64,000 bases of DNA from assembly GCA_964508565.1 (NCBI GenBank), contig CAZDUB010000006.1, positions 10,647-74,646 of the forward strand, given 5' to 3'. Shown here piece by piece: positions 14,241-64,000 of this stretch. How positions within the stretch are numbered: the stretch's first letter is position 1; the number at the start of each line of letters is the position of its first letter. The DNA comes from an uncultured Elusimicrobia bacterium. Its GTDB lineage: Bacteria > Elusimicrobiota > Endomicrobiia > DTEH01. The notes under the pieces were generated by a model. It had not been told where the DNA came from, searched no databases, and saw nothing but the letters and a program-made list of their open reading frames with translations. Both the position numbers and the translations under genes were made by a program.

Positions 14241-14312
14241 GCCGGCGTAGCTCAGTGGTAGAGCAGGCGCCTTGTAAGCGTCAGGTCGGGGGTTCAAATC
14301 CCTTCGCCGGCT
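14241..14312 (+). tRNA. tRNA-Thr(TGT)
   Basis: Acceptor GCCGGCG/CGCCGGC, anticodon loop CT-TGT-AA, GGTTCAAATCC; no encoded CCA. Confidence 0.95.
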
Positions 14313-14386
14313 TTTTAATTTAGATAATTATTTTGTGTAAACTCTTTAATTTAATTTTTTAATTTTATAAACCATTTAACTTAGTT

Positions 14387-14460
14387 GCGCCTGTAGCTCA
14401 ACAGGATAGAGCAACGGCCTTCTAAGCCGTGGGCTGTGGGTTCAACTCCCTCCAGGCGCG
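14387..14460 (+). tRNA. tRNA-Arg(TCT)
   Basis: Acceptor GCGCCTG/CAGGCGC, stem ACGGC/GCCGT, loop CT-TCT-AA, GGTTCAACTCC. Confidence 0.94.
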
Positions 14461-14498
14461 TTTAATCAGTCAATTATTATTTTTAAAAATTTAGAAGT

Positions 14499-14571
14499 GG
14501 GCCCGTAGCTCAGTAGGTAGAGCACCGGCCTTTTAAGCCGGGTGTCGAGAGTTCGAATCTCTCCGGGCTCA
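14499..14571 (+). tRNA. tRNA-Lys(TTT)
   Basis: Acceptor GGGCCCG/CGGGCTC, stem CCGGC/GCCGG, loop CT-TTT-AA, GTTCGAATC. Confidence 0.95.
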
Positions 14572-14590
14572 CTTTGTTTTGAAAATATTT

Positions 14591-14665
14591 GGTGGTTGTA
14601 GCTCAACTGGATAGAGCACCTGGCTGTGGCCCAGGTTGTTGCGGGTTCGAGTCCCGTCAACCACC
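14591..14665 (+). tRNA. tRNA-His(GTG), with encoded G-1 and C73
   Basis: G + GTGGTTG/CAACCAC + C, stem CCTGG/CCAGG, loop CT-GTG-GC, GGTTCGAGTCC. Confidence 0.95.
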
Positions 14666-14690
14666 CAGAGTGGAAAGTAGTGTTGTTAAT

Positions 14691-14770
14691 AGTTTGAAGT
14701 ATGGAGTTCGGAGTTTAAAGTTTGTAAAAAATTATTATTTCAACTTTGAATTCAGAACTCTATACTAACA
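14691..14770. repeat. Heptamer-built inverted repeat (hairpin) in the tRNA-His/tRNA-Val spacer
   Basis: Arms 14698-14722 and 14742-14766 match at 21/25 positions (24/25 pair allowing G-U). Left arm is AGTTTGA AGTATGG AGTTCGG AGTTTAA AGTTTGT. Confidence 0.85.
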
Positions 14771-14777
14771 TAAAACT

Positions 14778-14849
14778 GGGCGGTTAGCTCAGCGGGAGAG
14801 CGCCCGGTTTACACCCGGAAGGTCAGAGGTTCAAATCCTCTACCGCCCA
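14778..14849 (+). tRNA. tRNA-Val(TAC)
   Basis: Acceptor GGGCGGT/ACCGCCC, loop TT-TAC-AC, GGTTCAAATCC. Confidence 0.94.
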
Positions 14850-14873
14850 TTTTGAGTTTTTAAATTAAAACAA

Positions 14874-14949
14874 GGGCTCGTGGTGTAGCCTGGTTTAACA
14901 CGCTGGCCTGTCAAGCCAGAGAGCGCGGGTTCAAATCCCGTCGAGCCCG
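14874..14949 (+). tRNA. tRNA-Asp(GTC)
   Basis: Acceptor GGGCTCG/CGAGCCC, stem CTGGC/GCCAG, loop CT-GTC-AA, GGTTCAAATCC. Confidence 0.95.
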
Positions 14950-16071: not shown

Positions 16072-16278
16072 TTATTTCTTTGAGTAAATAGATACAAAAA
16101 ATTCTATACTTCTATTATATGTCTTTTCTTTTTCTGGTGGGAAAAAGCACCCAGGAAGTTCTCCATGACTTCTATGATACAAAACACATTCACAGCATTT
16201 TCCTTTTCTATGGCAAGGTTCATAACTACAGGTGCAATTCTTTAAGTTTCTATCTATATTACAAATGGATTTATTCAT
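16072..16278 (-). CDS. Small Cys-rich protein (DUF6485-like), probable start 16278
   Basis: [22 protein letters not shown]...LPGCFFP..EKTYNRS; GGAGG RBS precedes the second Met of the track ORF. Confidence 0.7.
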
Positions 16279-16373
16279 AGTGGTACCTCCTTCTTGTATA
16301 ATTTTAGACAATGTCAATATTTAAATACAGATCTCAAAAAAATGACAAAAATAAATATATTTTATTAAAATAT

Positions 16374-16400
16374 CTCTGTCCACTCTGTGTCTTTGTGGTG
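16374..16400. repeat. Solo arm of the 9-mer CTCTGTG repeat family
   Basis: CTCTGTCCACTCTGTGTCTTTGTGGTG resembles 30601-30637. Confidence 0.65.
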
Positions 16401-16430: not shown

Positions 16431-18572
16431 TTAAATTCTTTCAAATAATAAAATTATACTTAGAAAAACACTAAATAGGCTCAAAATAGTTCCTATCTTG
16501 AAACTTAAAGGTTCATAAATAAAAATAATTTTGTTTTTGCCTGCTGATAATATTATTCCACTCATAAAGATATTTGTGTGATATATTTTTGTTTCTTTAT
16601 TGTTAACTTTACACTTCCATCCAGGATAAAAATTTTTTGATAAAACAAAAAATTTTGGAGAGTCAGAAATTATTTCTATTATAATTTTATTGTTTAAATA
16701 ATTTATTTTTTCTAAATCTATATTTTTAGATTTTTGGTTATTACTTAGCATCTTTTTAATTTCAAAGTCATAATTGTGTACTATTGCAGTATTAAAAATC
16801 TTCCAGTTTATTTCTTCCATTAGTTTTAAAGATTTTCCTAAGTTAGATTCAAAAATTATGTTTTCTACGGGATATATAACTGGTAAAACAAAAGGATTTT
16901 CATAAATCTTCATATGTTTAAAATTATAAGCAAGTTTGAAGTAATTGGTCTTTTGTTCCAGAGATGATAAAACATATTTAATATTGGCTATACTTAAAAA
17001 CGCTACGGTGTCATCTAATGATTTTCTACTATAAATAAAATTTTTGAATTTATTATAATTTTTCAGTTCAATATCTTGTCCTTGGAAGTTGAAAAGTTTA
17101 TATTCTATATTTACATTTCCTAATAACTTATCTTTATAGTTAGCGATTGCGTTATATAAGTCTTCTGCGTAAGAAATGCCTGCTAATTTTTGTGTTAATG
17201 GAGTTAACATAAAGCGATATTTATGTATGTCTAAATTATTTTTTTCTATCATAAAATTTATCACTTCTTTTTTTTCTTCAAGTATAGAATTAGGTAACAA
17301 CATTGATATTTTATTATTATAAAAATACAATTCAAAAAAAGTAATAATTGCTAAAAGAGATAAAAATTTCTTATATTTTTTTAACTTTATTTCTAAAAAC
17401 TGCAGACCATAACTCCCTAATATACAAATAATAAACAGAATTACATACATTGATGTAGCTGGATATCTAAAAATCCTTATAAATGGAAAAACTTTATACA
17501 AAATCCTAAAAATAAAAAAGTTGTCTCCAAGTGAATAACTCAATATTATGATAGCTACTAAAATTAAAAATATTTTTTCTTTTAAATCTTTATGAAATAA
17601 AACTCCCAATATAACCAAAGCAATAGCTACTACACCGCAATAAAATGTATACCACCAATAATTAGAAATTTCTAAAATTAAGTTTGAATATAAATTTTTG
17701 AAATTAAATTGCCAACTAAAAGGATAAATTAGATTTAACAAATCTTTAAAATTTAATGCTCCCAATCTAGCTTCTTCATATTTTAGCCCAATGTTTTTAA
17801 TATCTTCTCCTGCACGAACAGAATAGAAGAAAAATTCAGCTGTTGGAATGATCTGTATCGAGGCTAAAAGTAATGAAAATGTCAGACTTATTGTTAACAC
17901 TAAAATTGGTGTAGTTGTTTTTCGTTCAAAACATTTATAAATAGCATAAAAAATTAAAAATAAAACAGAATAAACCCATATCTGCGCGTGCCCAGCTAAA
18001 AATTGTATAGCAACCACATAGGATAATATTATAATTTTGTACATTTTTATTGTTTTTATTTCGTCAAACAACAAAATTATTAACGGCAACCATATCATAG
18101 TAGCAAACACGCTTAAAAATTCAATTCTACTTACCATATAGCCATTAAAACTCCAAATAATACTTCCAAATATAGAAGCAGTTAAACTTATTCTTTTTTT
18201 TCTTAGAAACAAAAACATAAATATGAAAGCTAATAAAAAATGCAGAATTATAAATATTTTATATGCTGCTACGAAGTCTTCTAAAAGGTAAAATATTAAA
18301 CTAAAAGGATAAAATACTTGAGATTGCAAGTTTGCTAAAAATGGATAACCACAATAGTTATAATGGTTCCATAGAGGTATTACTTCTAAATAATTTACAC
18401 TTTGAGATTTTAAATTTAACAAGAAATTTTTTGTTAATACTTTCCAGGGTTTAAATTGTAAAATTATATCACGCTGGAAGTATGTTAATGGTTTAAATAT
18501 TATTTTATTGAAAAAAATCAGATTTAAAACACAACCAAATATAAAAACTATTAAATATATTTTTTTTCTCAT
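16431..18572 (-). CDS. YfhO-family multi-TM (GT-C-like) membrane protein
   Basis: PLWNHYNYCGYPFLANLQSQVFYP, FLAGHAQ, many TM segments, C-terminal NFYPGWKCKVN...FIYEPLSFKIG. Confidence 0.82.
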   Translation of the reverse strand: MRKKIYLIVFIFGCVLNLIFFNKIIFKPLTYFQRDIILQFKPWKVLTKNFLLNLKSQSVNYLEVIPLWNHYNYCGYPFLANLQSQVFYPFSLIFYLLEDFVAAYKIFIILHFLLAFIFMFLFLRKKRISLTASIFGSIIWSFNGYMVSRIEFLSVFATMIWLPLIILLFDEIKTIKMYKIIILSYVVAIQFLAGHAQIWVYSVLFLIFYAIYKCFERKTTTPILVLTISLTFSLLLASIQIIPTAEFFFYSVRAGEDIKNIGLKYEEARLGALNFKDLLNLIYPFSWQFNFKNLYSNLILEISNYWWYTFYCGVVAIALVILGVLFHKDLKEKIFLILVAIIILSYSLGDNFFIFRILYKVFPFIRIFRYPATSMYVILFIICILGSYGLQFLEIKLKKYKKFLSLLAIITFFELYFYNNKISMLLPNSILEEKKEVINFMIEKNNLDIHKYRFMLTPLTQKLAGISYAEDLYNAIANYKDKLLGNVNIEYKLFNFQGQDIELKNYNKFKNFIYSRKSLDDTVAFLSIANIKYVLSSLEQKTNYFKLAYNFKHMKIYENPFVLPVIYPVENIIFESNLGKSLKLMEEINWKIFNTAIVHNYDFEIKKMLSNNQKSKNIDLEKINYLNNKIIIEIISDSPKFFVLSKNFYPGWKCKVNNKETKIYHTNIFMSGIILSAGKNKIIFIYEPLSFKIGTILSLFSVFLSIILLFERI

Positions 18573-29558: not shown

Positions 29559-30356
29559 ATGGAAGTTAAAAAAAGGTTAGATAAAATACTAGTTGAAAAA
29601 AATTTGGCTGATTCTAGGGCTAAGGCTGCCAAAATAGTAAAAGATTTTGGAGTAAAAGTGGACAATGAAGTTGTGTATGACCCATCAAAATTAGTCAGCG
29701 AAGATACAAAGATAGAACTTGTTAAACCCTACGAATATGTGTCTGCCGGTGGTTACAAATTAGAAGGATTGCTTAATAAAAAAATAATAGATGTTAAAGA
29801 TAAAATTTGTTTTGATATAGGTTCTTCAACTGGTGGTTTTGTTGATTGCCTTTTAAGATTTGGTGCAAAAAAAGTTTATTGTTGTGATGTAGGGAAAGAC
29901 CTTTTACATGAAAAGTTGAGAAACAATCCAAAAGTAGTCTTGTTTGAAGGAGTTAACTTTAGATATTTCGTAGAATTAGGATATAAAGAAAAAATAGAAG
30001 ATAAAATAGATATATTTACAGCAGATGTGTCATTCATATCTTTGACAAAAATTATTCCAGTTATATTAAAAATAGCACCATATAAACATATTTTAATTGC
30101 TCTTATCAAACCGCAGTTTGAATGTGAGCCCAAATATGTAAAAAAAGGTATAGTTAGAGAGGAAAAATATCGCCTTCAAGCAGTAGAAAAAATTGTCAAT
30201 TTTTGTAAACAGCTTGGATATAAAAAAAATACTGTAGAAGAATCATTAGTTAAAGGTAAAGAAGGAAATATTGAGTATTTTGGTGTGTTTGAATTTGTAA
30301 GTGAATGTGTTCATTGTTCTAATTTAAAAAGAACCACAAAGTACGCAAAGGCGTAG
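29559..30356 (+). CDS. tlyA: TlyA-family rRNA methyltransferase
   Basis: KRLDKILV (S4 domain), YVSAGGYKL, DIGSSTGGF, DVSFISL, LIKPQFE, GKEGNIEY. Confidence 0.93.
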   Translation: MEVKKRLDKILVEKNLADSRAKAAKIVKDFGVKVDNEVVYDPSKLVSEDTKIELVKPYEYVSAGGYKLEGLLNKKIIDVKDKICFDIGSSTGGFVDCLLRFGAKKVYCCDVGKDLLHEKLRNNPKVVLFEGVNFRYFVELGYKEKIEDKIDIFTADVSFISLTKIIPVILKIAPYKHILIALIKPQFECEPKYVKKGIVREEKYRLQAVEKIVNFCKQLGYKKNTVEESLVKGKEGNIEYFGVFEFVSECVHCSNLKRTTKYAKA

Positions 30357-30675
30357 AAGATTTATGAGAGTAAAAACAAATAGATGTATGAATAAATTTG
30401 TAAAGGCCTTATTTAATATAAGTCCACCTGACTTCTTCTGTGCTCCCTTTGTCTTTTATTTTTTCTCTGTTGTAAAATTAATGAAGTATACCACAAAGGA
30501 CATAAAGACCCAGAGAATTTATGAAAGACAAGAAAGTAAAATCTGTGAATGAGTTTGTTAATGATTCTCTCTACACATTTATTCAACAAATTTTAAGATT
30601 CTCTGTGTTCTTTGTGTCTCTTATATTCTCTGTGGTGAAAAATAACAAACCACAGAGAGTACGAAGACAAAGAGG
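30332..30675. repeat. Two tandem ~158-nt hairpin units with 9-mer arms, plus a third left arm
   Basis: Left arms start at 30332, 30490 and 30648 (ACCACAAAG-GACATAAAG-ACCCAGAGA type). Right arms at ~30432-30473 and 30598-30637 (CTCTGTGTTCTTTGTGTC...CTCTGTGGT). Confidence 0.82.
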
Positions 30676-30679
30676 TTTT

Positions 30680-30759
30680 GTTAGGGTCAGCATATTACTG
30701 AACCTTAACCTTCTATACCCTACACCATTTTATAAATTGTAGGGTTCTGATTTATCAGA
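30680..30759. repeat. Three abutting short hairpins
   Basis: GTTAGGGTCAG/CTGAACCTTAAC with AACCTT x2; perfect ACCCTACA/TGTAGGGT (30717-30745); TCTGA/TCAGA (30746-30759). Confidence 0.75.
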
Positions 30760-30762
30760 CAT

Positions 30763-30874
30763 AGTGAGCAGTTGGTAGCTAGGAGTTGGTAGTAAGTAGT
30801 GATTGGTAGGTAGTGAGGTAAGATATTAACATACTCTGAACTTCCTGCTCCAGATTCCGAACTACAAACTAACT
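30763..30874. repeat. Facing degenerate heptamer tracts
   Basis: Eight AG/GG-initiated 7-mers at 30763-30818 (AGTGAGC AGTTGGT AGCTAGG AGTTGGT AGTAAGT AGTGATT GGTAGGT AGTGAGG). Six ACT-type 7-mers at 30833-30874 (ACTCTGA ACTTCCT GCTCCAG ATTCCGA ACTACAA ACTAACT). Confidence 0.85.
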
Positions 30875-31038
30875 TCCCCTCTATTAAGAGGGAATTAAGG
30901 GGTGTATTACACGAGTTTATTGAGTTTGTTGAATTTATTAAGTTTTCTAGTATAGTGCTAAATCCTAAACCTTTTTGAAAACAGACAACGATAAAACCAA
31001 ACGACCAGATAATCAAACAACTAAACAATCACATAACT
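30875..31038. repeat. GC hairpin, 9-mer tract and 8-mer tract
   Basis: CCCTCT-ATTA-AGAGGG then AATTAAGGGGTGT; GAGTTTATT GAGTTTGTT GAATTTATT AAGTTTTCT (30913-30948); seven octamers AGACAACG ATAAAACC AAACGACC AGATAATC AAACAACT AAACAATC ACATAACT (30983-31038). Confidence 0.8.
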
Positions 31039-31050
31039 GATATTTTAATT

Positions 31051-32451
31051 ATGCAAAACTTATATCGCCAGATTTTTTTCACAACAACAAAATATGTGTT
31101 TTTAAGAAACTTTTTTATGGTAATTACTGGAATTGTAAGCATCTTCATTGTTCGTCTGTTGGGCCCTGAGGAATACGGTAAGTACGCATTAGTTTGGCAA
31201 CTTATAGGAACAATAGGGCCAATACTTTCTTTAGGTTGGCATGCAACTTTAGCAAAGTTTTTACCTGAAAAAGATGAACAAGAGAAAAAAATTTTATTTT
31301 CACAAAGTGTGTTAAGTGTAGCAGTTTTATGTTTGCTTTTCTTACTCATAGGATATATTATAATTCAATTTCTGCCGCAAATAATACCAGCAGAAATAAA
31401 GCAAATAAAAACCTTATTTCTTTTTTTTATATCTTTTGTTGCATTCTTTAATGTGTTTGAAGGTTTTTATAGGGGATTAGGAAAGTTTAACCAGTGGAGT
31501 ATTATTGATGGAATGAGGTCTAATTTGGGAAATTTGTTGGGACTAATTTTTCTAATTTTAGGTTTTCGTATATACAAAAGCATAATATATAGCAATTTTG
31601 CTGTAGCTTTTATTTTTTTAGTTGTTGTTGCTTTTTCATTACGTAATTATTTCTTTTTCACCAAAAACAAAGTTGAGAAAGTAGTTTTAAAATTTGCTTT
31701 AACTATGTTTTTAGGCCAGATAGTTTATCTTTTTATGTCTAGTATAGATTCTGTGATGTTGCGTTCAATACTAAAAGATCCTTCAAAAGTTGGTATATAC
31801 AATGCAGGTATAAGAATTCCTAAAATTATTGAAACGATGTTTATTGCGGTTCTGTCCACACCATTTTTATATTATTTTTCATCACCTGGATTTGCTGAAC
31901 AAAGATTAAAAATACTGGAGTTTAGTAGTAGAATTTTATTTATTTTTTTTGGATTTGTATCATTACTGCTGTTCGTTTTCTCAAAATATATAATATTTAT
32001 TCTATTTGGTAACATCTACAGTGAGAGTATCATAACTTTACAACTTTCAAGTTTAGGTTTGTCGTTACTTGCGTATCTTATATTGTTTTCTGTTTATTTT
32101 ATGTCAATTAACAAGCCAGAAATAGGTACTTTCTTAGGTATAGCTTATTTTTTAATAGTTGGAATGTTGAATTTATTATTTATTCCGATGTTTAAATCGT
32201 ACGGTCCCGCAGTGAGTAATCTTATTGCTTTAGTTGTTTATTGTATTTTAATTTTAGTGATTGTAAAAAAATTAGAGTTTTTTAAAAAATTTTTGTTAGT
32301 TGGTTTATGTATATTTATATCTGTGATGTTTGGATATATTTTTAATCATTTATTATCTCCTGCTATATATCTTCTACTTATTATTTTGTTTAATGTAATC
32401 ACTTTTGAGGAGGGGAAAAAAGTATGGGAGATTATAATTCGCAAGGTTTGA
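31051..32451 (+). CDS. Oligosaccharide flippase (Wzx-like)
   Basis: VRLLGPEEYGKYAL, VGIYNAG, ILFGNIYSES, GPAVSN; 12-14 TM segments; heads a glycosyltransferase cluster. Confidence 0.9.
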   Translation: MQNLYRQIFFTTTKYVFLRNFFMVITGIVSIFIVRLLGPEEYGKYALVWQLIGTIGPILSLGWHATLAKFLPEKDEQEKKILFSQSVLSVAVLCLLFLLIGYIIIQFLPQIIPAEIKQIKTLFLFFISFVAFFNVFEGFYRGLGKFNQWSIIDGMRSNLGNLLGLIFLILGFRIYKSIIYSNFAVAFIFLVVVAFSLRNYFFFTKNKVEKVVLKFALTMFLGQIVYLFMSSIDSVMLRSILKDPSKVGIYNAGIRIPKIIETMFIAVLSTPFLYYFSSPGFAEQRLKILEFSSRILFIFFGFVSLLLFVFSKYIIFILFGNIYSESIITLQLSSLGLSLLAYLILFSVYFMSINKPEIGTFLGIAYFLIVGMLNLLFIPMFKSYGPAVSNLIALVVYCILILVIVKKLEFFKKFLLVGLCIFISVMFGYIFNHLLSPAIYLLLIILFNVITFEEGKKVWEIIIRKV

Positions 32452-34106: not shown

Positions 34107-34109
34107 CAT

Positions 34110-34160
34110 TTGAAATCAGAAGTTAAGTTAGATATAATAAATTAACAAAAATACTAACTT
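34110..34160 (+). promoter_or_regulatory. Probable sigma70 promoter and inverted-repeat operator of the abiE operon
   Basis: TTGAAA (34110-34115), 17-nt spacer, TATAAT-type -10 box at 34133-34138. AAGTTAG (34125-34131) and CTAACTT (34154-34160) form an inverted repeat straddling the -10. Confidence 0.55.
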
Positions 34161-34183
34161 TTTATATTTTTTAGCAATGACCT

Positions 34184-34768
34184 ATGAGGTTACCTATTTT
34201 AATCGAGAACGACAGGCTTTTATTCACTTTAAGTGATATCTGCCAAATATTAAGAATAAAACCTTCATCTGTTAAGGTTTTATTATCAAGGTATGTAAAA
34301 AATGGGTATTTAATAAGAATTAAAAGAAATTTGTATATACTTAAAAACAAAATAGGAAATTTGTCAAACGAGGAGAAGTTTATTATAGCAAATATGGTTT
34401 AGGCGCCTTCATATATTTCATTTACAACCGCTTTTTCATACTATGGTATATCAACACAGCTACAGCAAAATTTTATAGAATCAGCAGCAGTATGTAGAAC
34501 AAAAATTATGGGAAACGAATATTTTACTTTCAGATATTTTAAATTGGACAGAAAGTATTATTTTGGATTTATAAGAAAAAACAATTTTTTTATAGCAACT
34601 CCTGAAAAAGCAATTTTAGATAGTTTATATCTTATAGTGTTAGGTAAATATAAACTTGATGCATCAGCAATTGATTGGAGCAAAATTAGTAAGATAAAGC
34701 TTACGAAAATTTTGAAGAAATTTCCTGAAAAAATTAGTAAACTAATTCTAAGTTTATGTAAGATTTAA
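34184..34768 (+). pseudogene. AbiEi-family antitoxin (type IV TA) with one in-frame TAG
   Basis: wHTH-like N-terminus (FTLSDICQIL...LSRYVKNGYLIRIKRNLY). TAG at 34400-34402, then in-frame APSYISFTTAFSYYGI...IATPEKAILDSLYL. Confidence 0.85.
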
Positions 34769-35420
34769 TTAAACAAGAAATTTTTGAGCTAGAAGTTTTG
34801 CAATATCTAAAAAACAAGAAATTTTGGATAATCTAGTATTTAATTGATGGAACAATGTTAAGGTTGTGTTATGATTTGCCAAGATATTCTGTCGATTTAG
34901 ATTTTTGGTTAAAAAGAAGATAAATATAAATAATTTTTATACTCAGAGCATAAACACTTTGCAGGAACGATATTATTTTAACTAATAAACAAAACAAGTT
35001 TTTTACACTACTATTTGAGATAAAATCAAAAGATTATCCAAGAAAATTAAAAATTGAGATAAGAAAAAAATAGTAAGATATGAATTTAAACCCAAGATAG
35101 CATTTTCTAAACACTCAACTACTCAAGTTTTATTAAATTGTTTAAATTTAGACCAAACTATGAAGAACAAAATCCTTACTTTTATTGAAAGAAAAGAAAT
35201 AAGAGATTGTTTTGATATAGAATTTTTGTTAAAAAAAGGTATGGAACTTAAAACTTCAAAGTCAAATCTGAGAAAAATGAAAAATATACTTCTAAAGTTT
35301 AAACCTGTAGATTACAAAGTTACATTAGGTTCTATTTTAGAACCAGAGTTAAGAAAATATTACGAAAAAAATAACTTTGAATTTTTAATCACAAAAATTA
35401 ATGAGTTGTTGAAAGAATAA
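34756..35420 (+). pseudogene. AbiEii-family nucleotidyltransferase toxin, multiply disrupted
   Basis: ATG-TAA at codons 1-2. Fragments in shifting frames: DLIKQEIFELEVL, LDNLVF, DGTMLRLCYDLPRYSVDLDFW, LKIEIRK, KNKILTFIERKEIRDCFDIEF. Confidence 0.85.
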
Positions 35421-35421
35421 A

Positions 35422-36166: not shown

Positions 36167-37303
36167 ATGAGCTTGAAAATAGATATTATAACTCCATTTT
36201 TTTATCCAATGGTTGGAGGTGCTGAGACTTATGTTTATGAGTTGTCTACACGATTAGCAAAATGTGGTTATGATGTTACTGTTCATACTTCATTTTTTGT
36301 AAAAGAATCATTCAATTTATCTCAGTTTGAAGTTATTAATGGAGTTAAAGTTTATAGATATAAACCAATATGGAGAAATTATTATTATTACTGGCTTTGG
36401 GTACCAATGATTTCAAAAACAGATGTTTTGCATGTATGCGGTTATGGCCATCTGTGTTTTAGTTTAACAATTTTACGCTACAGTCGTAAATTTCCAATAA
36501 TTTCTACACCAATTGGTGTATCTGCACCTATTGAAGGTCCAAAATCTAGGTTATTAAGAAGACTTTATGATTCTATAATTGGTATAAAACATCTCTCAAT
36601 ATGTAAAAAAATCATAGTTTTAGCAGAAGAAGAAAAACAATGGTGTATAACAAGAGGAATTAAAGAGGATAAAATAATCAAAATTCCAGTAGGAATACCA
36701 GAAGAAGCCTTCTTAATTTATGATCCATCTTTAACAAAACAACTTTATAATTTGGAGAAATATATATTATATGTAGGCCGTATTCATAAAGATAAAGGTG
36801 TAGTTGAATTAGTAAAAGCATTTTCATTAGTTAATGTTGAAGTGTCAGATTTAAAATTAGTATTTGTAGGGCCAGATGACGGTTACAGGGATGAAGTTCA
36901 AAAAGTAGCTACACAGTTAAATATACAAGATAAAATTGTATGGGTTGGGAAGGTGACTCAAGAGGAGAAGTATTTATTGATTTCTAATTGTAAAATTTTG
37001 GTTTTACCAAGCAAATATGAACTTCAGGGAATAGTTTTGGTTGAAGCAATGGCGCAAGGAAAACCAGTAGTTGCTACTAATGTAGGTGGTGTTTCTGATT
37101 TTGTAAAAAACGGATGGAATGGGTTTTTGGTTAGGTATGGAGATGTAGAAAGTTTAGCTGATAAAATTAAGATTTTATTAAGCGACAGCAAAATATATGG
37201 GTATTTATCATACAATGCTAAAAAAACTGCGGAAGAATTTAAATGGGATAAAATTATTGATAGATACGAAAAAATTTATAGAGAGATAGCCACAATTAAA
37301 TGA
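36167..37303 (+). CDS. Glycosyltransferase family 4
   Basis: PMVGGAE, LYVGRI..DKG, LPSKYELQGIVLVEAMAQGKPVVATNVGG. Confidence 0.92.
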   Translation: MSLKIDIITPFFYPMVGGAETYVYELSTRLAKCGYDVTVHTSFFVKESFNLSQFEVINGVKVYRYKPIWRNYYYYWLWVPMISKTDVLHVCGYGHLCFSLTILRYSRKFPIISTPIGVSAPIEGPKSRLLRRLYDSIIGIKHLSICKKIIVLAEEEKQWCITRGIKEDKIIKIPVGIPEEAFLIYDPSLTKQLYNLEKYILYVGRIHKDKGVVELVKAFSLVNVEVSDLKLVFVGPDDGYRDEVQKVATQLNIQDKIVWVGKVTQEEKYLLISNCKILVLPSKYELQGIVLVEAMAQGKPVVATNVGGVSDFVKNGWNGFLVRYGDVESLADKIKILLSDSKIYGYLSYNAKKTAEEFKWDKIIDRYEKIYREIATIK

Positions 37304-38523
37304 AAATAGCATTTAACGCAATAAGAGTATCAAATAAAGCGGGTTCTGGTTTTGATACTTTTATAATTAATTTTATTAATACTTTTGCAAAATATATCTA
37401 CTCTGAATTCCAAACTCCTAACTCTGAATTATATTTCGATGTTTATACTTTATATCCATACCACTTCCCAGAAGTTAAAAAAGAAGACATAAAACATATA
37501 AAAATTCCTTTTTTAAGTTGGAGGCGTAATACTAAGTCTCAAAGGACATCAAATAGTATTGGTAACAAACAACAAACTAAAAAGATTTTTTCTTTCCTGA
37601 CTCCTATCTACTACCTCCTATCTACTATCTACTGCCTTTTCGGTGATTACTTTCGTATGTTTTGGACACAATTTATTTTCCCATTTTATGCTTTAAGATA
37701 CGACTTGGTAATTTCATTAACTGAATATGAAGCATCTGTTTTTTTCTCTAAACGGCAAATAATAATTATGCATAGTGTTGTTTTGTTTTTGTTTAGAAAT
37801 TTCCCTAAAAAATATAAGTTATATGTCTCATTTTTACTACCAGAAATATTAAAAAAATGTAGGAAAATAATAGTTGTATCAGAAACCTTGAAGTCGCAAC
37901 TACAACAGATTTTTAGTATTCCTGAAGATAAAATATTTGTTTTATATGAAGGAGTAGATACACAAAAGTTCAGACCTGCTTCAAAAGAAGAGATATTGGA
38001 GTTTAAAAAAGAATTAAACTTGCCCAACAGATATGTTCTTATGGTTGGACATAGTCATCCAGTAAAAAACTTTAGTCGGATACTGGAAAGTTTTAAGTAT
38101 GTGAAAGAAAAAATACATTGTGAACTTGTAATTGCTGGATATATAGGAAAAAATTTAAAGCTACCTTTGTATGTTAGGTATGTTGGTCATGTGACAAATG
38201 AAAAACTATATTTATTATACTCAGCTGCAGAGTGTTTTGTTTTTGCTTCACTTTATGAAGGTTTTGGTCTTCCACCACTTGAAGCAATGGCTTGTGGCTG
38301 TCCTGTAGTTGTTTCAAATAGTGGTTCATTACCAGAAGTATGCGGTGATGCTGCAATTTATGTTGATCCTTATAATCCAAAAGATATTGCGGAAGGAATT
38401 ATTAAAGTTTTATCTAACGAGACATTACGCCAAGAACTTATCAAAAGAGGTTTTAAACAAATAAAAAAATTTACTTGGGAAAAATCAGCTCAAAGATTTA
38501 TGGAGTTGTTGAAAAATATTTAA
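37300..38523 (+). CDS. Glycosyltransferase family 4 (MtfB/WbdA-like) containing in-frame heptamer tracts
   Basis: [47 protein letters not shown]. Confidence 0.92.
37400..37634 (+). repeat. Three degenerate heptamer tracts inside the GT4 CDS
   Basis: ACTCTGA ATTCCAA ACTCCTA ACTCTGA (37400-37427); AACAAAC x2 (37564-37577); ACTCCTA TCTACTA CCTCCTA TCTACTA TCTACTG (37600-37634). Confidence 0.8.
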
Positions 38524-61818: not shown

Positions 61819-64000
61819 ATGAATGATGAAAAAGATATAGAATTAAACGATTTGGATAAAGAGATTTATCAAGCAGAAAGAGAAATTTCACAATCAACTG
61901 TTAATTTTTTAAGGAACAAAATTGCACAACAAAAAGAACAATTTGAAAAGTTTAGTATAGCTAAGCAGAAAGAAATACAAGAATTACAGGAAAAGTTAAA
62001 AAATACTGAGGAAGCTTTAAAACAAACTCAAGCATTGTTAGAGAGATATCAACAATCAGAATTAGAAAATTTAAAAAAAGCAGCTGAAGAGCTACAAAGA
62101 CAAAAAGAGAAGGAAATGCAACGGTGGAAAATGATTGAAGAGGAGATTAAAAAATTCAAAGAAATTTCTTATTCTTCAGAACTAAGATTGAAAGAAGAAA
62201 TAAAAAGGTATCAAGAATTAAAACAACTATATGAAGAAAAAGTGAAGGAATGGGAAAATAAGTTCCTCCAGTTAGAAGTAGAACTACAAAATTATAAAGA
62301 ATTGTTATCCAAAAAAGAAGAAGAAATAATAAAGATTAACGAGGTAAAAAATAACGAAATTTCACAATTAAATCAAGAAATAGAAAAATTAAGAAAACAA
62401 ATTATTGACGAAAAAAGGACTTATGAACAAAGGATAAATGAAGCAAACGACACAATTAAAGAATTACAAGAAAGTTTAAACCAAGTATTGTTAAAGCAAC
62501 AACATTGGAAATTAGAAGCAGAGAAATATAAAGAATATTTACAAGAAAAAACTTTACAGATTGAACAGTATGAATTAAATATGAAACATTTGAAAGAAGA
62601 AGCAGAAGCTAAATATAGACAATATGAAGAACAGATAAACAAATATAAACAACAAATAGAATCACAATCAGTTGCTTTCCAAAATGAGAAAAAACAATTC
62701 CAAGACAGTTATGAAACAGAAATTGGTAAATTGAAATACGAGTTAGCAGAAGAAAGGAAGATAACTCACGAATTAACAAACATAAATAAAAACTTAGAAC
62801 AACAACTATTACAAAAAGAGGAACAAATTCAGAAACTTAAAAATGAACTAAAAAGTTTTGAAGCAGTAAAATTACAAGAATTTAAACAATTAAACGATAA
62901 AATTTCTTATTTAAATCAGGAAAACGAAAAGTTAATTTTAGAATTAAATCAGATAAAGCATAATTATGAAGAAGAACATAAATTAAGAATGATTATTGAA
63001 CAAAAACTTGATAACATAATAGCTGAAAAAAACAGACTTATTGAACAACTAAACAAAGATATAGAAGTTTGGAAGCATACACTTGAAGAAGAAAAGACTA
63101 AGGCAGAACAAAGGATAAATGCATTGATTGAGAGGTACGAAAATATTGTATCGTCTAGGAATGAAGAAATTAAAAAATTGCAGCAAGAGCTGATTGTTTT
63201 AGAAAACGAATATAATGAATTAAGAAAAATCTATCAAGAAACAAAGATAAATAATCAACACTCGCAAGCATCTGTTGATTATTTAGAAAAAAAAGTTGAA
63301 GAATTAAACAACCAACTACAAACAGAACGTGATAGATTCGCTGAAATTTTATCTTCCGAAAGGGCAAGTTGGGAAGAGAGAAGTAAGAAATATAATGAAG
63401 AATTGGAAAAAATTAAAATGGAGTATGAAGAAAAAATTAATTTTATGAAAAAAACAGAGGAAGGGCTGTTAAATGAGATAAAAAATTTAGATGTGGAATA
63501 CAAAAAATTATTAATTGTTAAAAACGATTTAGAAGAGAAAATAAAAAGCCTTTATGATGAAAATGAAAGTTTAAAACAAGCATTGGAATCTAAAACAAAT
63601 GAATATATAAAAAAATTAGAAGAACAAAAAATTTATTATGAAGAGAACATCAAGAAGTTAAACTCACAAATAGAGAAATTACAAAATGATTATTCTAATC
63701 TTCAAGTTCAAAAGAACAATGAGATATCAAATTTAATCTCACAATATGAAGAAAAAATTAAACAAATAGAAGAAAATTTTGCACAACAGTATAATAATTT
63801 TAATTCAGAAAGAAATGAACTTTTGAAAAAAATAGATGCTCTATCGTTAAAGATACAAGAATTAAATAGAGAAAAAGAAATATTATTGAATATAAAAAAC
63901 GAAAATGAAAAAATAATTAACGATTTGAAAGTAGAAATGAAAAAACAAATAGAACAAAAAAATAAAGAAATAGAAAATCTAAACCTACTTATTGATGAGG
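61819..64000 (+). CDS. Very long coiled-coil protein, 3'-truncated by the window edge; not in the ORF track
   Basis: Hand translation from ATG 61819 gives 727 sense codons with no stop; E/K/Q/N/L/I-rich, zero Pro, zero Cys, two Gly. Confidence 0.92.
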   Translation, partial: MNDEKDIELNDLDKEIYQAEREISQSTVNFLRNKIAQQKEQFEKFSIAKQKEIQELQEKLKNTEEALKQTQALLERYQQSELENLKKAAEELQRQKEKEMQRWKMIEEEIKKFKEISYSSELRLKEEIKRYQELKQLYEEKVKEWENKFLQLEVELQNYKELLSKKEEEIIKINEVKNNEISQLNQEIEKLRKQIIDEKRTYEQRINEANDTIKELQESLNQVLLKQQHWKLEAEKYKEYLQEKTLQIEQYELNMKHLKEEAEAKYRQYEEQINKYKQQIESQSVAFQNEKKQFQDSYETEIGKLKYELAEERKITHELTNINKNLEQQLLQKEEQIQKLKNELKSFEAVKLQEFKQLNDKISYLNQENEKLILELNQIKHNYEEEHKLRMIIEQKLDNIIAEKNRLIEQLNKDIEVWKHTLEEEKTKAEQRINALIERYENIVSSRNEEIKKLQQELIVLENEYNELRKIYQETKINNQHSQASVDYLEKKVEELNNQLQTERDRFAEILSSERASWEERSKKYNEELEKIKMEYEEKINFMKKTEEGLLNEIKNLDVEYKKLLIVKNDLEEKIKSLYDENESLKQALESKTNEYIKKLEEQKIYYEENIKKLNSQIEKLQNDYSNLQVQKNNEISNLISQYEEKIKQIEENFAQQYNNFNSERNELLKKIDALSLKIQELNREKEILLNIKNENEKIINDLKVEMKKQIEQKNKEIENLNLLIDE

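What the first reader, a model, noticed from the sequence alone, without database searches (positions are those of the whole stretch)
30332..31038. Candidate system: a concatenated catalogue of hairpin and tandem-repeat modules (6-, 7-, 8-, 9-nt periods) gating the polysaccharide locus
Seen: the ~700 nt between tlyA and the flippase are almost fully tiled by distinct modules. In order: 9-mer-armed hairpins, an AACCTT hairpin, an ACCCTACA/TGTAGGGT hairpin, a TCTGA hairpin, eight purine heptamers facing six pyrimidine-rich heptamers, a CCCTCT/AGAGGG hairpin, four GAGTTTATT 9-mers and seven AAACAACT-type octamers. Units within a tract are degenerate but keep exact phase, which plain slippage of one motif does not explain. 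No transposase, cas or integrase is adjacent. Inference: an accumulation site for end-structures of small mobile cassettes whose cargo was lost, i.e. a cassette-capture hotspot, or a stack of RNA-processing stems tuning downstream glycan genes. From recollection only (unverified), similar arms flank GxxExxY, four-helix-bundle and DUF559-type genes in other genomes.
Basis: partly seen in the sequence, partly recalled or inferred. Interest (0 to 1): 0.85.

Follow-up and report, generated by a model that had tools for sequence, protein, structure and literature searches.

The report
Graveyard of gene-less hairpin cassette ends
The 694 bases between tlyA and the flippase gene are an insertion specific to this lineage, made of decayed, gene-less copies of small palindromic elements; one kind belongs to a family found across bacterial phyla that, when complete, carries a small GxxExxY nuclease-like gene, so the site is a junkyard of selfish elements and not a dedicated switch for the sugar genes.

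Summary
The modules are present at the stated coordinates, but only some exceed chance. Unit U2 (30490-30636), the 30624-30661 junction hairpin and four small hairpins fold better than shuffles. The purine 7-mers and the GAGTTTATT 9-mers are truly periodic. The two large "facing tract" hairpins, the pyrimidine tract and unit U1 are not supported.

Related Endomicrobiia genomes have tlyA 5-115 nt from the orthologous wzx. The spacer is therefore an insertion, and it also gave TlyA a 19-residue tail.

Positions 30333-30680 hold three tandem units with ACCACARAG arms. The same arms occur in at least 120 metagenome loci, mostly as 60-300-nt empty hairpins. They flank GxxExxY (TIGR04256/PF13366) genes in every independent sample I took, and one mini-hairpin still keeps the last 20 codons of such a gene.

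In a related Endomicrobiia MAG, a four-helix-bundle gene (PF05635) flanked by tandem-8-mer arms sits between cas4 and cas1. Two other modules recur in relatives.

The window holds no cargo gene or remnant. The mobility mechanism and any RNA processing are inferred. No paper I could find describes these armed cassettes outside rRNA.

Verdict: real; a new variant of the IVS/MITE/BIME kind; moderately interesting.

The parts
29559..30356 (+). tlyA (S4 + FtsJ methyltransferase). The last 19 codons (about 30300-30353, ...SECVHCSNLKRTTKYAKA) are a lineage-specific tail that runs into the first arm.
   Evidence: Pfam. In the alignment with five relatives, their proteins end at ...GNIEYFAVF(K/G)xx, giving 245-246 aa against 265 aa here. 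The tail peptide TTKYAK is the arm-coded peptide also seen at the C-terminus of GxxExxY protein P0077.
30333..30474 (+). Unit U1: a decayed ACCACAAAG-armed element. Left arm 30333-30359, relic ATG at 30364, right arm 30434-30474.
   Evidence: Homologous to U2 over 72 nt (Smith-Waterman, 0/1000 shuffles). The first 18 nt are identical to the 3' arm of the GxxExxY cassette in L151. It no longer folds better than shuffles (z -0.5).
30490..30636 (+). Unit U2: an intact 147-nt hairpin element. Left arm 30490-30516, relic ATGAAAGAC at 30521, right arm 30596-30636 ending CTCTGTGGT followed by GAAAAA.
   Evidence: RNA fold -41.7 kcal/mol, z -4.85, 0/200 shuffles. The terminal sequence TTCTCTGTGGTGAAAA is identical to element ends in more than 20 metagenome loci. 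No GxxExxY homology was found inside it.
30624..30661 (+). Back-to-back junction hairpin formed by the U2 right arm and the U3 left arm.
   Evidence: 13-bp stem, 92% complementary (I12); -19.1 kcal/mol, z -6.2.
30649..30680 (+). Unit U3: a solo left arm (ACCACAGAGAGTACGAAGACAAAGAGG) with no right arm.
   Evidence: Pattern hit. No complementary partner was found downstream.
30679..30760 (+). TGTAGGG-type units. These are TGTTAGGGT...ACCCTACA (30679-30724, with an inner AACCTT hairpin), a spacer, then TGTAGGGT plus the TCTGA hairpin (30738-30760). The ACCCTACA/TGTAGGGT 'hairpin' is the junction of two such units.
   Evidence: Folds have z -3.3, -2.65 and -2.7. The same architecture ([TGTAGGG..CCCTACA]-spacer-[TGTAGGGT + small hairpin]) fills the orthologous tlyA-wzx gap of L002, but sequence similarity is only weak (38/1000 shuffles). 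TGTAG..CTACA double-hairpin units recur in L001 intergenic regions.
30762..30822 (+). Purine-rich tract with 7/14-nt period (TAGTGAG CAGTTGG TAGCTAG ...). It resembles a single tandem-repeat arm.
   Evidence: Periodicity p<0.0005. It has no significant sequence similarity to the L004 arms or the L006 tracts. With the following tract it does not fold better than shuffles (z +0.4).
30836..30875 (+). Pyrimidine-rich tract, proposed as the decayed partner arm.
   Evidence: Periodicity is not significant (p=0.18). Assigning it as an arm is inference only.
30875..30905 (+). CCCCTCT-ATTA-AGAGGG hairpin plus ATTAAGGGGTGT module.
   Evidence: A 31-nt match to L006 606-637, in a similar mosaic spacer at another site of a related MAG (E 0.003; 0/1000 shuffles; sequence). 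Fold z -2.3.
30913..30948 (+). GAGTTTATT 9-mer tandem tract (3.7 copies). It overlaps a promoter-like site at 30929-30956.
   Evidence: TRF score 45; periodicity p<0.0005. The promoter-like match is at consensus level only. No copies were found elsewhere.
30976..31034 (+). A/C-rich tract with a weak 8-nt period.
   Evidence: p=0.04. It does not pair with the 9-mer tract beyond chance (z +0.8).
31051..32451 (+). wzx-type flippase. In relatives it lies 5-115 nt after tlyA.
   Evidence: Pfam; alignment with L001-L003 orthologues; junction sequences.
16375..16400 (-). Solo arm of the same family (minus strand: ACCACAAAGACACAGAGTGGACAGAG). It lies in another spacer, about 30 nt after the stop of the minus-strand gene 16431-18572.
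   Evidence: Pattern search gave 6 hits in the window against 0.53 expected (0/100 shuffles). Five of the six lie in these two spacers.

Best explanation
The tlyA-wzx spacer is a lineage-specific pile-up of gene-less, partly decayed copies of short palindromic 'armed' elements from several families.

The best-defined part (30333-30680) is a head-to-tail array of three units: U1 decayed, U2 an intact 147-nt hairpin, U3 a left arm only. Their arms are AT-shifted versions of a cross-phylum arm family. That family has 9-nt periodic units (ACCACAGAG GACACAGAG ACACAGAG) and ends of the form tcACCAC...GTGGTga(aaa). Complete members carry a promoter-less GxxExxY PD-(D/E)XK gene between the arms and sit co-directionally in the short spacers of host operons.

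The remaining modules are of the same general kind:
- TGTAGGG...CCCTACA units.
- The CCCCTCT hairpin module.
- The 7-nt and 9-nt periodic tracts.
Two of these recur in related Endomicrobiia genomes. In this lineage, tandem-repeat arms also flank a four-helix-bundle (23S_rRNA_IVP) gene.

Shown:
- Insertion relative to orthologous loci.
- Membership of the arm family.
- The link between arms and cargo.
- Derivation of mini-hairpins by cargo deletion.
- Co-directional operon placement.

Inferred:
- The elements arrived by successive insertion, or by tandem duplication, at a permissive operon junction.
- They are transcribed with the operon.
- By analogy with 23S rRNA intervening sequences, their stems are cut by RNase III or otherwise act as processing or stability sites.
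- In the window they are neutral debris. Their side effects are a 19-residue tail on TlyA and the uncoupling of wzx from tlyA.

The enzyme that moves the elements is unknown. The GxxExxY nuclease itself is the obvious candidate.
For: 1. Insertion. TlyA relatives at 67-74% identity have the orthologous wzx 5 nt (L001), 6 nt (L003), about 55 nt (L006) or about 115 nt (L002) after tlyA, against 694 nt here. TlyA is 19 residues longer here.

2. Arm family. ACCACARAG is enriched in the window (6 hits against 0.53 expected). A pattern derived from U1 and U2 found at least 120 metagenome loci and one viral locus. Forty-two of these have an inverted partner within 400 nt, with spans of 68-292 nt. Where the left arm departs from the consensus, the right arm carries the matching change 27 times and keeps the consensus 14 times. 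Nested and tandem arrangements occur, as in the window (L041, L061, L081, L094).

3. Cargo. GxxExxY/PF13366 is the only family found more than once next to arms. It is flanked by arms in:
- L090, L081 and L155;
- L151-154 (between rtcB and rtcA);
- L146-150 (after topA);
- viral L145, which was found starting from the protein side.
In an unselected sample of 8 genes from isolate replicons, 4 have significant inverted arms, 1 has a 9-mer-armed mini-hairpin just downstream, and 2 have direct repeats of arm-type motifs. Of the 120 top GxxExxY proteins, 62 have arm-coded C-terminal tails.

4. Deletion derivative. The 158-nt hairpin in L141 still encodes ...LLINFSKSTLIDGVKRLVL*.

5. Same lineage. 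In L004 a PF05635 gene has 48-nt arms made of tandem 8-mers (75-83% complementary) and lies between cas4 and cas1. The L006 mosaic spacer shares the CCCCTCT module.

6. Orientation. The cargo gene is co-directional with both neighbours in 8 of 8 loci where both are annotated. All three window units point the same way as tlyA and wzx.

7. U1 and U2 are homologous.
Against: - No GxxExxY or other cargo gene, nor any remnant, is detectable in the window.
- Only 64 kb of this genome could be examined, so copy number and any autonomous copy are unknown.
- No clear target-site duplication was seen.
- The 7-mer, 9-mer and 8-mer tracts have no significant relatives. Their assignment as arms rests on resemblance of design only.
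- The AT-rich window arms match the GC-rich consensus only over 16-18 nt stretches, so convergence cannot be excluded.
- Arm mismatches show no G:U over A:C bias, so an RNA-level role is not demonstrated. U2 does fold 6 kcal/mol better as + strand RNA.
- Related Endomicrobiia loci (about 120 kb) contain no ACCACARAG arms.
Confidence: 0.65

Rival explanations
1. The spacer is a functional regulatory leader. A stack of RNA stems (processing, stability or attenuation sites) sets expression of the downstream polysaccharide genes, and the element-like sequences have been co-opted.
For: The whole region folds better than shuffles as + strand RNA (z -3.55). U2 is more stable on the + strand than on the - strand. 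It lies directly upstream of a glycan locus. A promoter-like site sits at 30929-30956.
Against: It is absent from relatives that have the same tlyA-wzx pair. There is no Rfam match. Promoter-like sites are fewer than in shuffles, and there is no + strand terminator. U1 and the large tracts are unstructured. The same arm family lies next to unrelated housekeeping genes everywhere.
Confidence: 0.12
2. The spacer was generated locally, by replication slippage, tandem duplication and decay of low-complexity AT-rich sequence, with no mobile element involved.
For: Two tracts are true short-period tandem repeats. U1 and U2 are adjacent homologues that could be a tandem duplication. No target-site duplication or transposase was found. 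The periodic tracts have no relatives.
Against: This cannot explain arms and exact element ends shared with more than 100 loci from other phyla. It also does not explain the shared CCCCTCT module at another site in L006, or a further solo arm at 16375-16400.
Confidence: 0.15
3. The spacer is the wreck of an ordinary gene, or of a full cassette with its cargo, that once lay between tlyA and wzx.
For: U1 and U2 keep an ATG at the cassette position (ATGAGAG, ATGAAAGAC), like the MKD/MRD starts of GxxExxY genes. Small ORFs are present.
Against: There was no hit to Pfam at E<=10. A GxxExxY HMM built from 120 proteins found nothing in six-frame fragments. A search of 5.8 billion proteins found nothing. 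U2's interior is itself palindromic.
Confidence: 0.06

Closest known systems
23S rRNA intervening sequences (IVS) of Leptospira, Coxiella, Salmonella and CPR bacteria
   Same: The IVS has terminal inverted repeats that form a long stem (28 bp in Coxiella) and a small ORF of the 23S_rRNA_IVP/S23p family in the loop. ORF-less and decaying versions exist, distribution is sporadic and suggests horizontal transfer, and the element is transcribed within a host operon. [quoted passage not shown] The L004 cassette carries the same protein family between inverted arms.
   Different: The elements here lie between protein-coding genes, not in rRNA helices. The arms are built from short tandem units (9-, 8- or 7-nt). 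The main verified cargo is a PD-(D/E)XK GxxExxY protein. RNase III cleavage has not been tested. The window copies carry no ORF.
BIMEs / REP clusters and REPINs of Proteobacteria (from my own knowledge: Gilson et al. 1991; Bertels and Rainey 2011)
   Same: Both are extragenic mosaics of several short motifs. Units alternate in orientation with two alternating linkers (here L arm, about 75 nt, R arm, about 12 nt, L arm, ...). Both form hairpins, sit inside operons between co-directional genes, and occur in tandem.
   Different: Single arms are not themselves palindromic and lack the GTAG head. The family is shared across phyla instead of being species-specific. The associated gene is a GxxExxY PD-(D/E)XK protein, not a RAYT (IS200/IS605-type) transposase.
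MITEs (for example Correia elements and cyanobacterial Nezha; from my own knowledge)
   Same: They are short (70-300 nt), have terminal inverted repeats, are non-coding deletion derivatives of a longer gene-carrying element (L141), lie in intergenic regions, and show nested and tandem insertions.
   Different: No target-site duplication was seen. The parent element encodes no recognisable transposase. The arms are tandem-repeat arrays.
Cyanobacterial STRR heptamer repeats and small dispersed repeats (from my own knowledge: Mazel et al. 1990; Elhai et al. 2008)
   Same: Both have intergenic tandem heptamers, often in inverted blocks, and small palindromic units nested within them.
   Different: The phylum and the sequences differ. 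I could not retrieve these papers in the library, so this comparison is a lead and not a test.

Membership tests
23S rRNA intervening sequence (IVS) | Inserted in a 23S (or 16S) rRNA helix | tested here: not met
   The region lies between tlyA and wzx. Rfam finds only six tRNAs in the window and no rRNA.
23S rRNA intervening sequence (IVS) | Terminal inverted repeats forming a long stable stem | tested here: met
   U2 has z -4.85. The L004 cassette arms are 48 nt and 75-83% complementary.
23S rRNA intervening sequence (IVS) | ORF of the 23S_rRNA_IVP (PF05635) family in the loop (many IVS have one) | tested here: not met
   There is none in the window (motif scan; Pfam). It is present in the related MAG locus L004.
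23S rRNA intervening sequence (IVS) | Excision from the transcript by RNase III | not testable with these tools
   This needs RNA end mapping or an in vitro cleavage assay.
Armed GxxExxY cassette (working class defined in this report) | Inverted arms of 9-nt periodic units with ends (tc)ACCAC...GTGGT(ga) | tested here: met
   U2 reads ACCACAAAGGACATAAAG...TTCTCTGTGGTGAAAAA. It matches element ends in more than 20 loci, and the pattern is shared with at least 120 loci.
Armed GxxExxY cassette (working class defined in this report) | TIGR04256/PF13366 gene between the arms | tested here: not met
   The HMM of 120 GxxExxY proteins gave no hit in six-frame fragments of the window. Pfam gave no hit. 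The window units are therefore at most gene-less derivatives.
Armed GxxExxY cassette (working class defined in this report) | Sits co-directionally in a short spacer between host genes | tested here: met
   U1-U3 point the same way as tlyA and wzx. The cargo is co-directional in 8 of 8 annotated cargo loci.
MITE | Terminal inverted repeats and small size | tested here: met
   U2 is 147 nt. The 42 paired relatives span 68-292 nt.
MITE | Target-site duplication | tested here: inconclusive
   Flanks continue the palindrome (tc/ga), but no consistent direct repeat is seen. One possible 11-nt repeat (TTGATTTAACC) occurs in L146.
MITE | Autonomous partner encoding a transposase with the same ends | tested here: not met
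   The only recurrent cargo is the GxxExxY protein, whose function is unknown (PMC3424549 lists PDDEXK_3 as 'Unknown'). No transposase family was found next to arms.
REP/BIME/REPIN | Unit is itself a short imperfect palindrome with a conserved head, mobilised by a RAYT | tested here: not met
   Single arms are purine-rich tandem units, not palindromes. No RAYT lies in the window ORFs scanned. The rest of the genome was not available.
REP/BIME/REPIN | Extragenic clusters of alternately oriented units with alternating linkers | tested here: met
   The L and R arms alternate, with an interior of about 75 nt and spacers of 12-15 nt.
Known structured RNA (Rfam) | Match to a curated covariance model | tested here: not met
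   There was no match at gathering score in the window or in 8 related loci. Only noise appeared at E<=10.

The most novel reading that the evidence does not exclude
The arms mark an undescribed, cross-phylum class of promoter-less 'operon-hitchhiker' cassettes, that is, IVS-like elements living outside rRNA.

Each cassette is a small GxxExxY PD-(D/E)XK or four-helix-bundle (23S_rRNA_IVP) gene enclosed by tandem-repeat inverted arms. It inserts co-directionally between genes of host operons; examples here are fabD-fabG, rtcB-rtcA, cas4-cas1 and tlyA-wzx. It is expressed from the host transcript.

The arm stem lets RNase III cut the cassette out of the polycistronic RNA, so the host tolerates it. 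Gene-less hairpins and solo arms then accumulate as debris.

On this reading, 23S rRNA intervening sequences are the special case that landed in rRNA operons. The '23S_rRNA_IVP genes associated with cas loci' reported in the literature would be hitchhikers and not Cas accessory proteins.
Probability: 0.3. Interest if true: 0.8.

Novelty: new variant of a known kind. Interest (0 to 1): 0.55.

Why it matters
For this genome the practical lessons are three:
- The 694-nt spacer should not be annotated as genes or as a regulator.
- TlyA's odd C-terminus is an insertion artefact.
- wzx has been uncoupled from tlyA.

The wider value lies in the family behind the debris. GxxExxY (PF13366) and 23S_rRNA_IVP (PF05635) proteins are abundant and have no known function. 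Here they are shown to come as armed cassettes wedged co-directionally into operons of many phyla, with empty hairpins as their decay products. Three things follow:
- It gives a concrete, testable model for where rRNA intervening sequences come from and how they spread.
- It offers an alternative reading of reports that 23S_rRNA_IVP genes are 'CRISPR-associated' (PMC3936711).
- It explains a common source of spurious small ORFs and odd protein tails (TTKYAK, PQRTQRTQR, SALSAFFAVK) in metagenome annotation.

Tried and rejected
- **Rfam.** Searched at gathering score on the window and on 8 related loci, and at E<=10 on the region. Only tRNAs and noise appeared.
- **blastn.** The region gave no match against 72,556 plasmids or 50,697 phages.
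- **Protein-space search.** The 102-aa minus-strand ORF covering the heptamer, CCCTCT and 9-mer modules had no candidate among 5.8 billion proteins.
- **Pfam.** The U1 and U2 peptides gave nothing at E<=10.
- **GxxExxY HMM.** An HMM of 120 proteins was run against all six-frame fragments of the window. The best E-value was 3.8, and that fragment lies outside the region. Gene remnants are therefore rejected.
- **Viral-contig scans.** CCCCTCTATTAAGAGGG and a heptamer pattern hit only ordinary phage terminators and one coding-region chance match. They were rejected as relatives.
- **Similarity of the tracts to known arms.** The purine and pyrimidine tracts are not significantly similar to the L004 arms or the L006 tracts.
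- **G:U versus A:C mismatch bias in arms**, tested as a sign of strand-specific RNA selection. No bias was found.
- **Arm clusters in relatives.** A search of the 8 related Endomicrobiia loci found none of the ACCACARAG type.
- **L091.** An arm pair 1.3 kb apart turned out to be an inverted duplication of an aminotransferase 5' end, probably an assembly artefact, and was not used.
- **CRISPR reading.** Rejected: there are no identical direct repeats with spacers.
- **Terminator reading.** Rejected: the conserved A-run follows the hairpin and the T-run precedes it.
- **Literature.** Searches for GxxExxY, PDDEXK_3, S23p and 23S_rRNA_IVP found no description of armed cassettes outside rRNA.
Full report
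**Observation.** Pfam confirms both flanking genes, and the ten neighbouring ORFs include no transposase, cas or integrase gene.

Tests against dinucleotide-preserving shuffles divide the modules into three groups.
- Clearly real hairpins: unit U2 (30490-30636; -41.7 kcal/mol; z -4.85; 0/200) and the 30624-30661 hairpin (z -6.2).
- Modestly supported hairpins: the AACCTT (z -3.3), ACCCTACA/TGTAGGGT (z -2.65), TCTGA (z -2.7) and CCCTCT (z -2.3) hairpins.
- Not supported: the first 9-mer-armed unit U1 (z -0.5) and the two large "facing tract" structures (z +0.4 and +0.8).

Periodicity is highly significant for the purine 7/14-nt tract and for the GAGTTTATT 9-mers (p<0.0005). It is marginal for the A/C octamers (p=0.04) and absent for the pyrimidine tract. 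An identical spacer is present in two other assemblies made with different software, so the region is not a chimera.

**The spacer is an insertion.** A scan of one genome per species with TlyA found the closest relatives (67-74% identity) among Endomicrobiia/Elusimicrobiota MAGs. In L001, L002, L003 and L006, tlyA is followed by the orthologous flippase gene (alignment). The gap is 5, about 115, 6 and about 55 nt respectively, against 694 nt in the window. The relatives' TlyA proteins end at ...GNIEYFAVFxx. The window protein runs on for 19 more residues (SECVHCSNLKRTTKYAKA) into the first arm. The whole spacer is thus lineage-specific, and its acquisition rewrote the end of tlyA.

**The 9-mer-armed units belong to a family found across phyla.** Positions 30333-30680 hold three head-to-tail units:
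- U1: left arm ACCACAAAGTACGCAAAGGCGTAGAAG, an ATG, and a degenerate right arm.
- U2: ACCACAAAGGACATAAAGACCCAGAGA ... TTCTCTGTGGT.
- U3: a left arm only.

U1 and U2 are homologous over 72 nt, including their interiors (0/1000 shuffles). ACCACARAG occurs six times in the window against 0.53 expected. Four of the hits lie here and one lies in another spacer, at 16375-16400.

Nearly all of these read ACCACAGAG-GACACAGAG-ACACAGAG and come from DNA of 55-65% G+C. Forty-two have an inverted partner within 400 nt, giving hairpins of 68-292 nt. The partner tends to carry the same variant bases as its arm (27 matching against 14 keeping the consensus). Element ends are conserved as tcACCAC...GTGGTga(aaaa). 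The window's TTCTCTGTGGTGAAAA is identical to more than 20 of these ends. Nested hairpins (L041, L061) and tandem units (L081, L094) are common, which matches the tandem layout in the window.

**The arms are the ends of GxxExxY cassettes.**
- Among ORFs next to arms, PF13366/TIGR04256 (GxxExxY PD-(D/E)XK) was the only family seen more than once. All the others were assorted housekeeping genes beside empty hairpins.
- Starting from the protein instead of the arms, the single viral homologue (L145) is flanked by ACCACAATGGTCACAAAGAGCACGAAGG ... CCTTCGTGTCCTTTGTGTTCTTTGTGTTCTTTGTGGTGAA.
- Three proteins looked up in public assemblies are all armed or followed by armed hairpins. They lie between rtcB and rtcA, after topA, and upstream of a glycosyltransferase gene.
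- The 3' arm of L151 is identical to the window's U1 left arm over 18 nt. It encodes the same TTKYAK peptide that now ends the window's TlyA.
- In an unselected set of eight GxxExxY genes on replicons of cultured bacteria, four have significant inverted arms: Bacteroides finegoldii, Sphingomonas (between fabD and fabG), Bernardetia and Treponema. One has a 9-mer-armed mini-hairpin just downstream, two have direct repeats of arm-type motifs, and one has nothing.
- Of the 120 best GxxExxY proteins, 62 carry C-terminal tails translated from arms.
- The 158-nt hairpin in L141 still encodes the last 20 residues of a GxxExxY protein. This shows directly that empty hairpins arise by deletion of the cargo.
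- In all eight loci where both neighbours are annotated, the cargo gene points the same way as both of them.

**The same design exists in this lineage with a different cargo.** In L004, a related Endomicrobiia MAG, a PF05635 (23S_rRNA_IVP, four-helix-bundle) gene lies between cas4 and cas1. It is enclosed by 48-nt arms made of tandem 8-mers (TTAGTATC x6.8 on the left and its complement on the right; 75-83% complementary). It also shows that arms built from short tandem units, like the window's 7-mer and 9-mer tracts, are cassette ends in this clade.

**The other modules.**
- The CCCCTCT-ATTA-AGAGGG-ATTAAGGGG module matches a module in L006 (31 nt; 0/1000 shuffles). In L006 it lies in a 650-nt mosaic spacer of the same style at a different site, again next to a purine-rich periodic tract.
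- The segment 30679-30760 has the same architecture as the entire tlyA-wzx gap of L002: a TGTAGGG...CCCTACA unit, a spacer, then TGTAGGGT plus a small hairpin. TGTAG...CTACA double-hairpin units recur in L001 spacers. Sequence similarity, however, is weak (38/1000).
- The 7-mer, 9-mer and 8-mer tracts have no detectable relatives. Reading them as solo or decayed arms is inference.

**What the window does not contain.** No GxxExxY, PF05635 or other cargo gene was found, and neither was any remnant. There is no Rfam family, no enrichment of promoters and no + strand terminator. Arm mismatches show no excess of G:U over A:C. U2 is nevertheless 6 kcal/mol more stable as + strand RNA.

**Mechanism.** The most likely account is that these are selfish, promoter-less cassettes that settle co-directionally in short operon spacers and are expressed from the host transcript. 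Over time they lose their cargo and leave hairpins and single arms. At permissive junctions such as tlyA-wzx, successive insertions or tandem duplications build a mosaic.

By analogy with 23S rRNA intervening sequences, the arm stems are probably RNase III substrates. Those sequences have terminal inverted repeats, an ORF in the loop and RNase III excision, and they show ORF decay and horizontal spread (PMC4990558; bioRxiv 10.1101/2024.02.27.582315). Cleavage of this kind would make the insertions tolerable. That step, and the identity of the mobilising enzyme, are inferred and not shown.

The rival readings are less likely, for the reasons given under each:
- a dedicated regulatory leader (0.12);
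- purely local slippage (0.15);
- a wrecked ordinary gene (0.06).

**Comparison with known systems.**
- 23S rRNA IVS: closest in architecture. The location criterion fails, so these are not IVS.
- BIME/REP clusters: closest in layout, with alternating units and linkers inside operons. However, single arms are not palindromes and no RAYT is involved.
- MITEs: closest in life history. However, no target-site duplication or transposase was found.

PDDEXK_3 is listed as function unknown, with multiple horizontal transfers (PMC3424549). 23S_rRNA_IVP genes inside cas operons have been reported as possibly CRISPR-associated (PMC3936711). The armed, co-directional cassette in L004 suggests hitchhiking instead. 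I found no paper describing armed GxxExxY or IVP cassettes outside rRNA. The library is incomplete, so this negative result is weak.

**Verdict.** The feature is real. The "cassette-end accumulation" reading is largely right and the "RNA switch for glycan genes" reading is not supported. The locus itself is debris. The family it exposes is the interesting part.

Noticed in passing
L004:18780-19290 (related Endomicrobiia MAG): A PF05635 23S_rRNA_IVP gene with inverted tandem-8-mer arms sits between cas4 and cas1. The literature treats such genes in cas loci as possibly CRISPR-associated (PMC3936711). The arms and the co-directional placement suggest a hitchhiking cassette instead.
   Followed up: partly
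window 37535-37650 (inside glycosyltransferase gene 37300-38523); L002:16027-16064: There is an in-frame pyrimidine-rich repeat tract here (CTCCTATCTACTAC x2 / CTATCTA x4.3, translated as [15 protein letters not shown]). The orthologous gene in L002 has a different tract (TTCTCACC x4.5) in the same loop. Arm-like repeats may also lodge in coding loops. Just upstream, the 10-mer CAAAGGACAT is shared with the U2 left arm.
   Followed up: partly
window 34107-35421: A 1.3-kb stretch inside the polysaccharide locus has only broken ORFs. By eye it is a decayed AbiEi/AbiEii-type toxin-antitoxin pair (motif DGTMLRLCYDLPRYSVDLDF). The gene callers report three short ORFs with no Pfam hits.
   Followed up: no
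L001:15500-15880 and L021:900-1770: L001 has a tandem array of TGTAG...CTACA double-hairpin units, plus a hairpin followed by CACTCCAAAA. A GC-rich phage contig (L021) has a spacer that strings together GC-rich versions of the same motifs (hairpin + CACTCCAAAA, ...CCCCTAC, and an ACCACAGAG arm). Several module families thus seem to exist in AT- and GC-adapted forms across phyla.
   Followed up: partly
L166 (Sphingomonas parapaucimobilis NZ_CP155749.1, 482497-483659) and L151 (GCA_032774505.1): Armed GxxExxY cassettes are wedged inside core operons: between fabD and fabG in L166, and between rtcB and rtcA in L151. In both the gaps to the flanking genes are only a few tens of bases.
   Followed up: partly
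window 61830-64000: A very long lysine/glutamate-rich coiled-coil ORF runs off the end of the window, with AT skew up to 0.42. It is not related to the finding.
   Followed up: no
window 14241-14949: A cluster of six tRNA genes lies within about 700 nt (Rfam).
   Followed up: no
window 16112-16283 (- strand): A small cysteine-rich ORF ([32 protein letters not shown]...) with its own promoter-like TTGACA/TAAAAT lies just downstream of the solo arm at 16375-16400. This was read by eye only.
   Followed up: no
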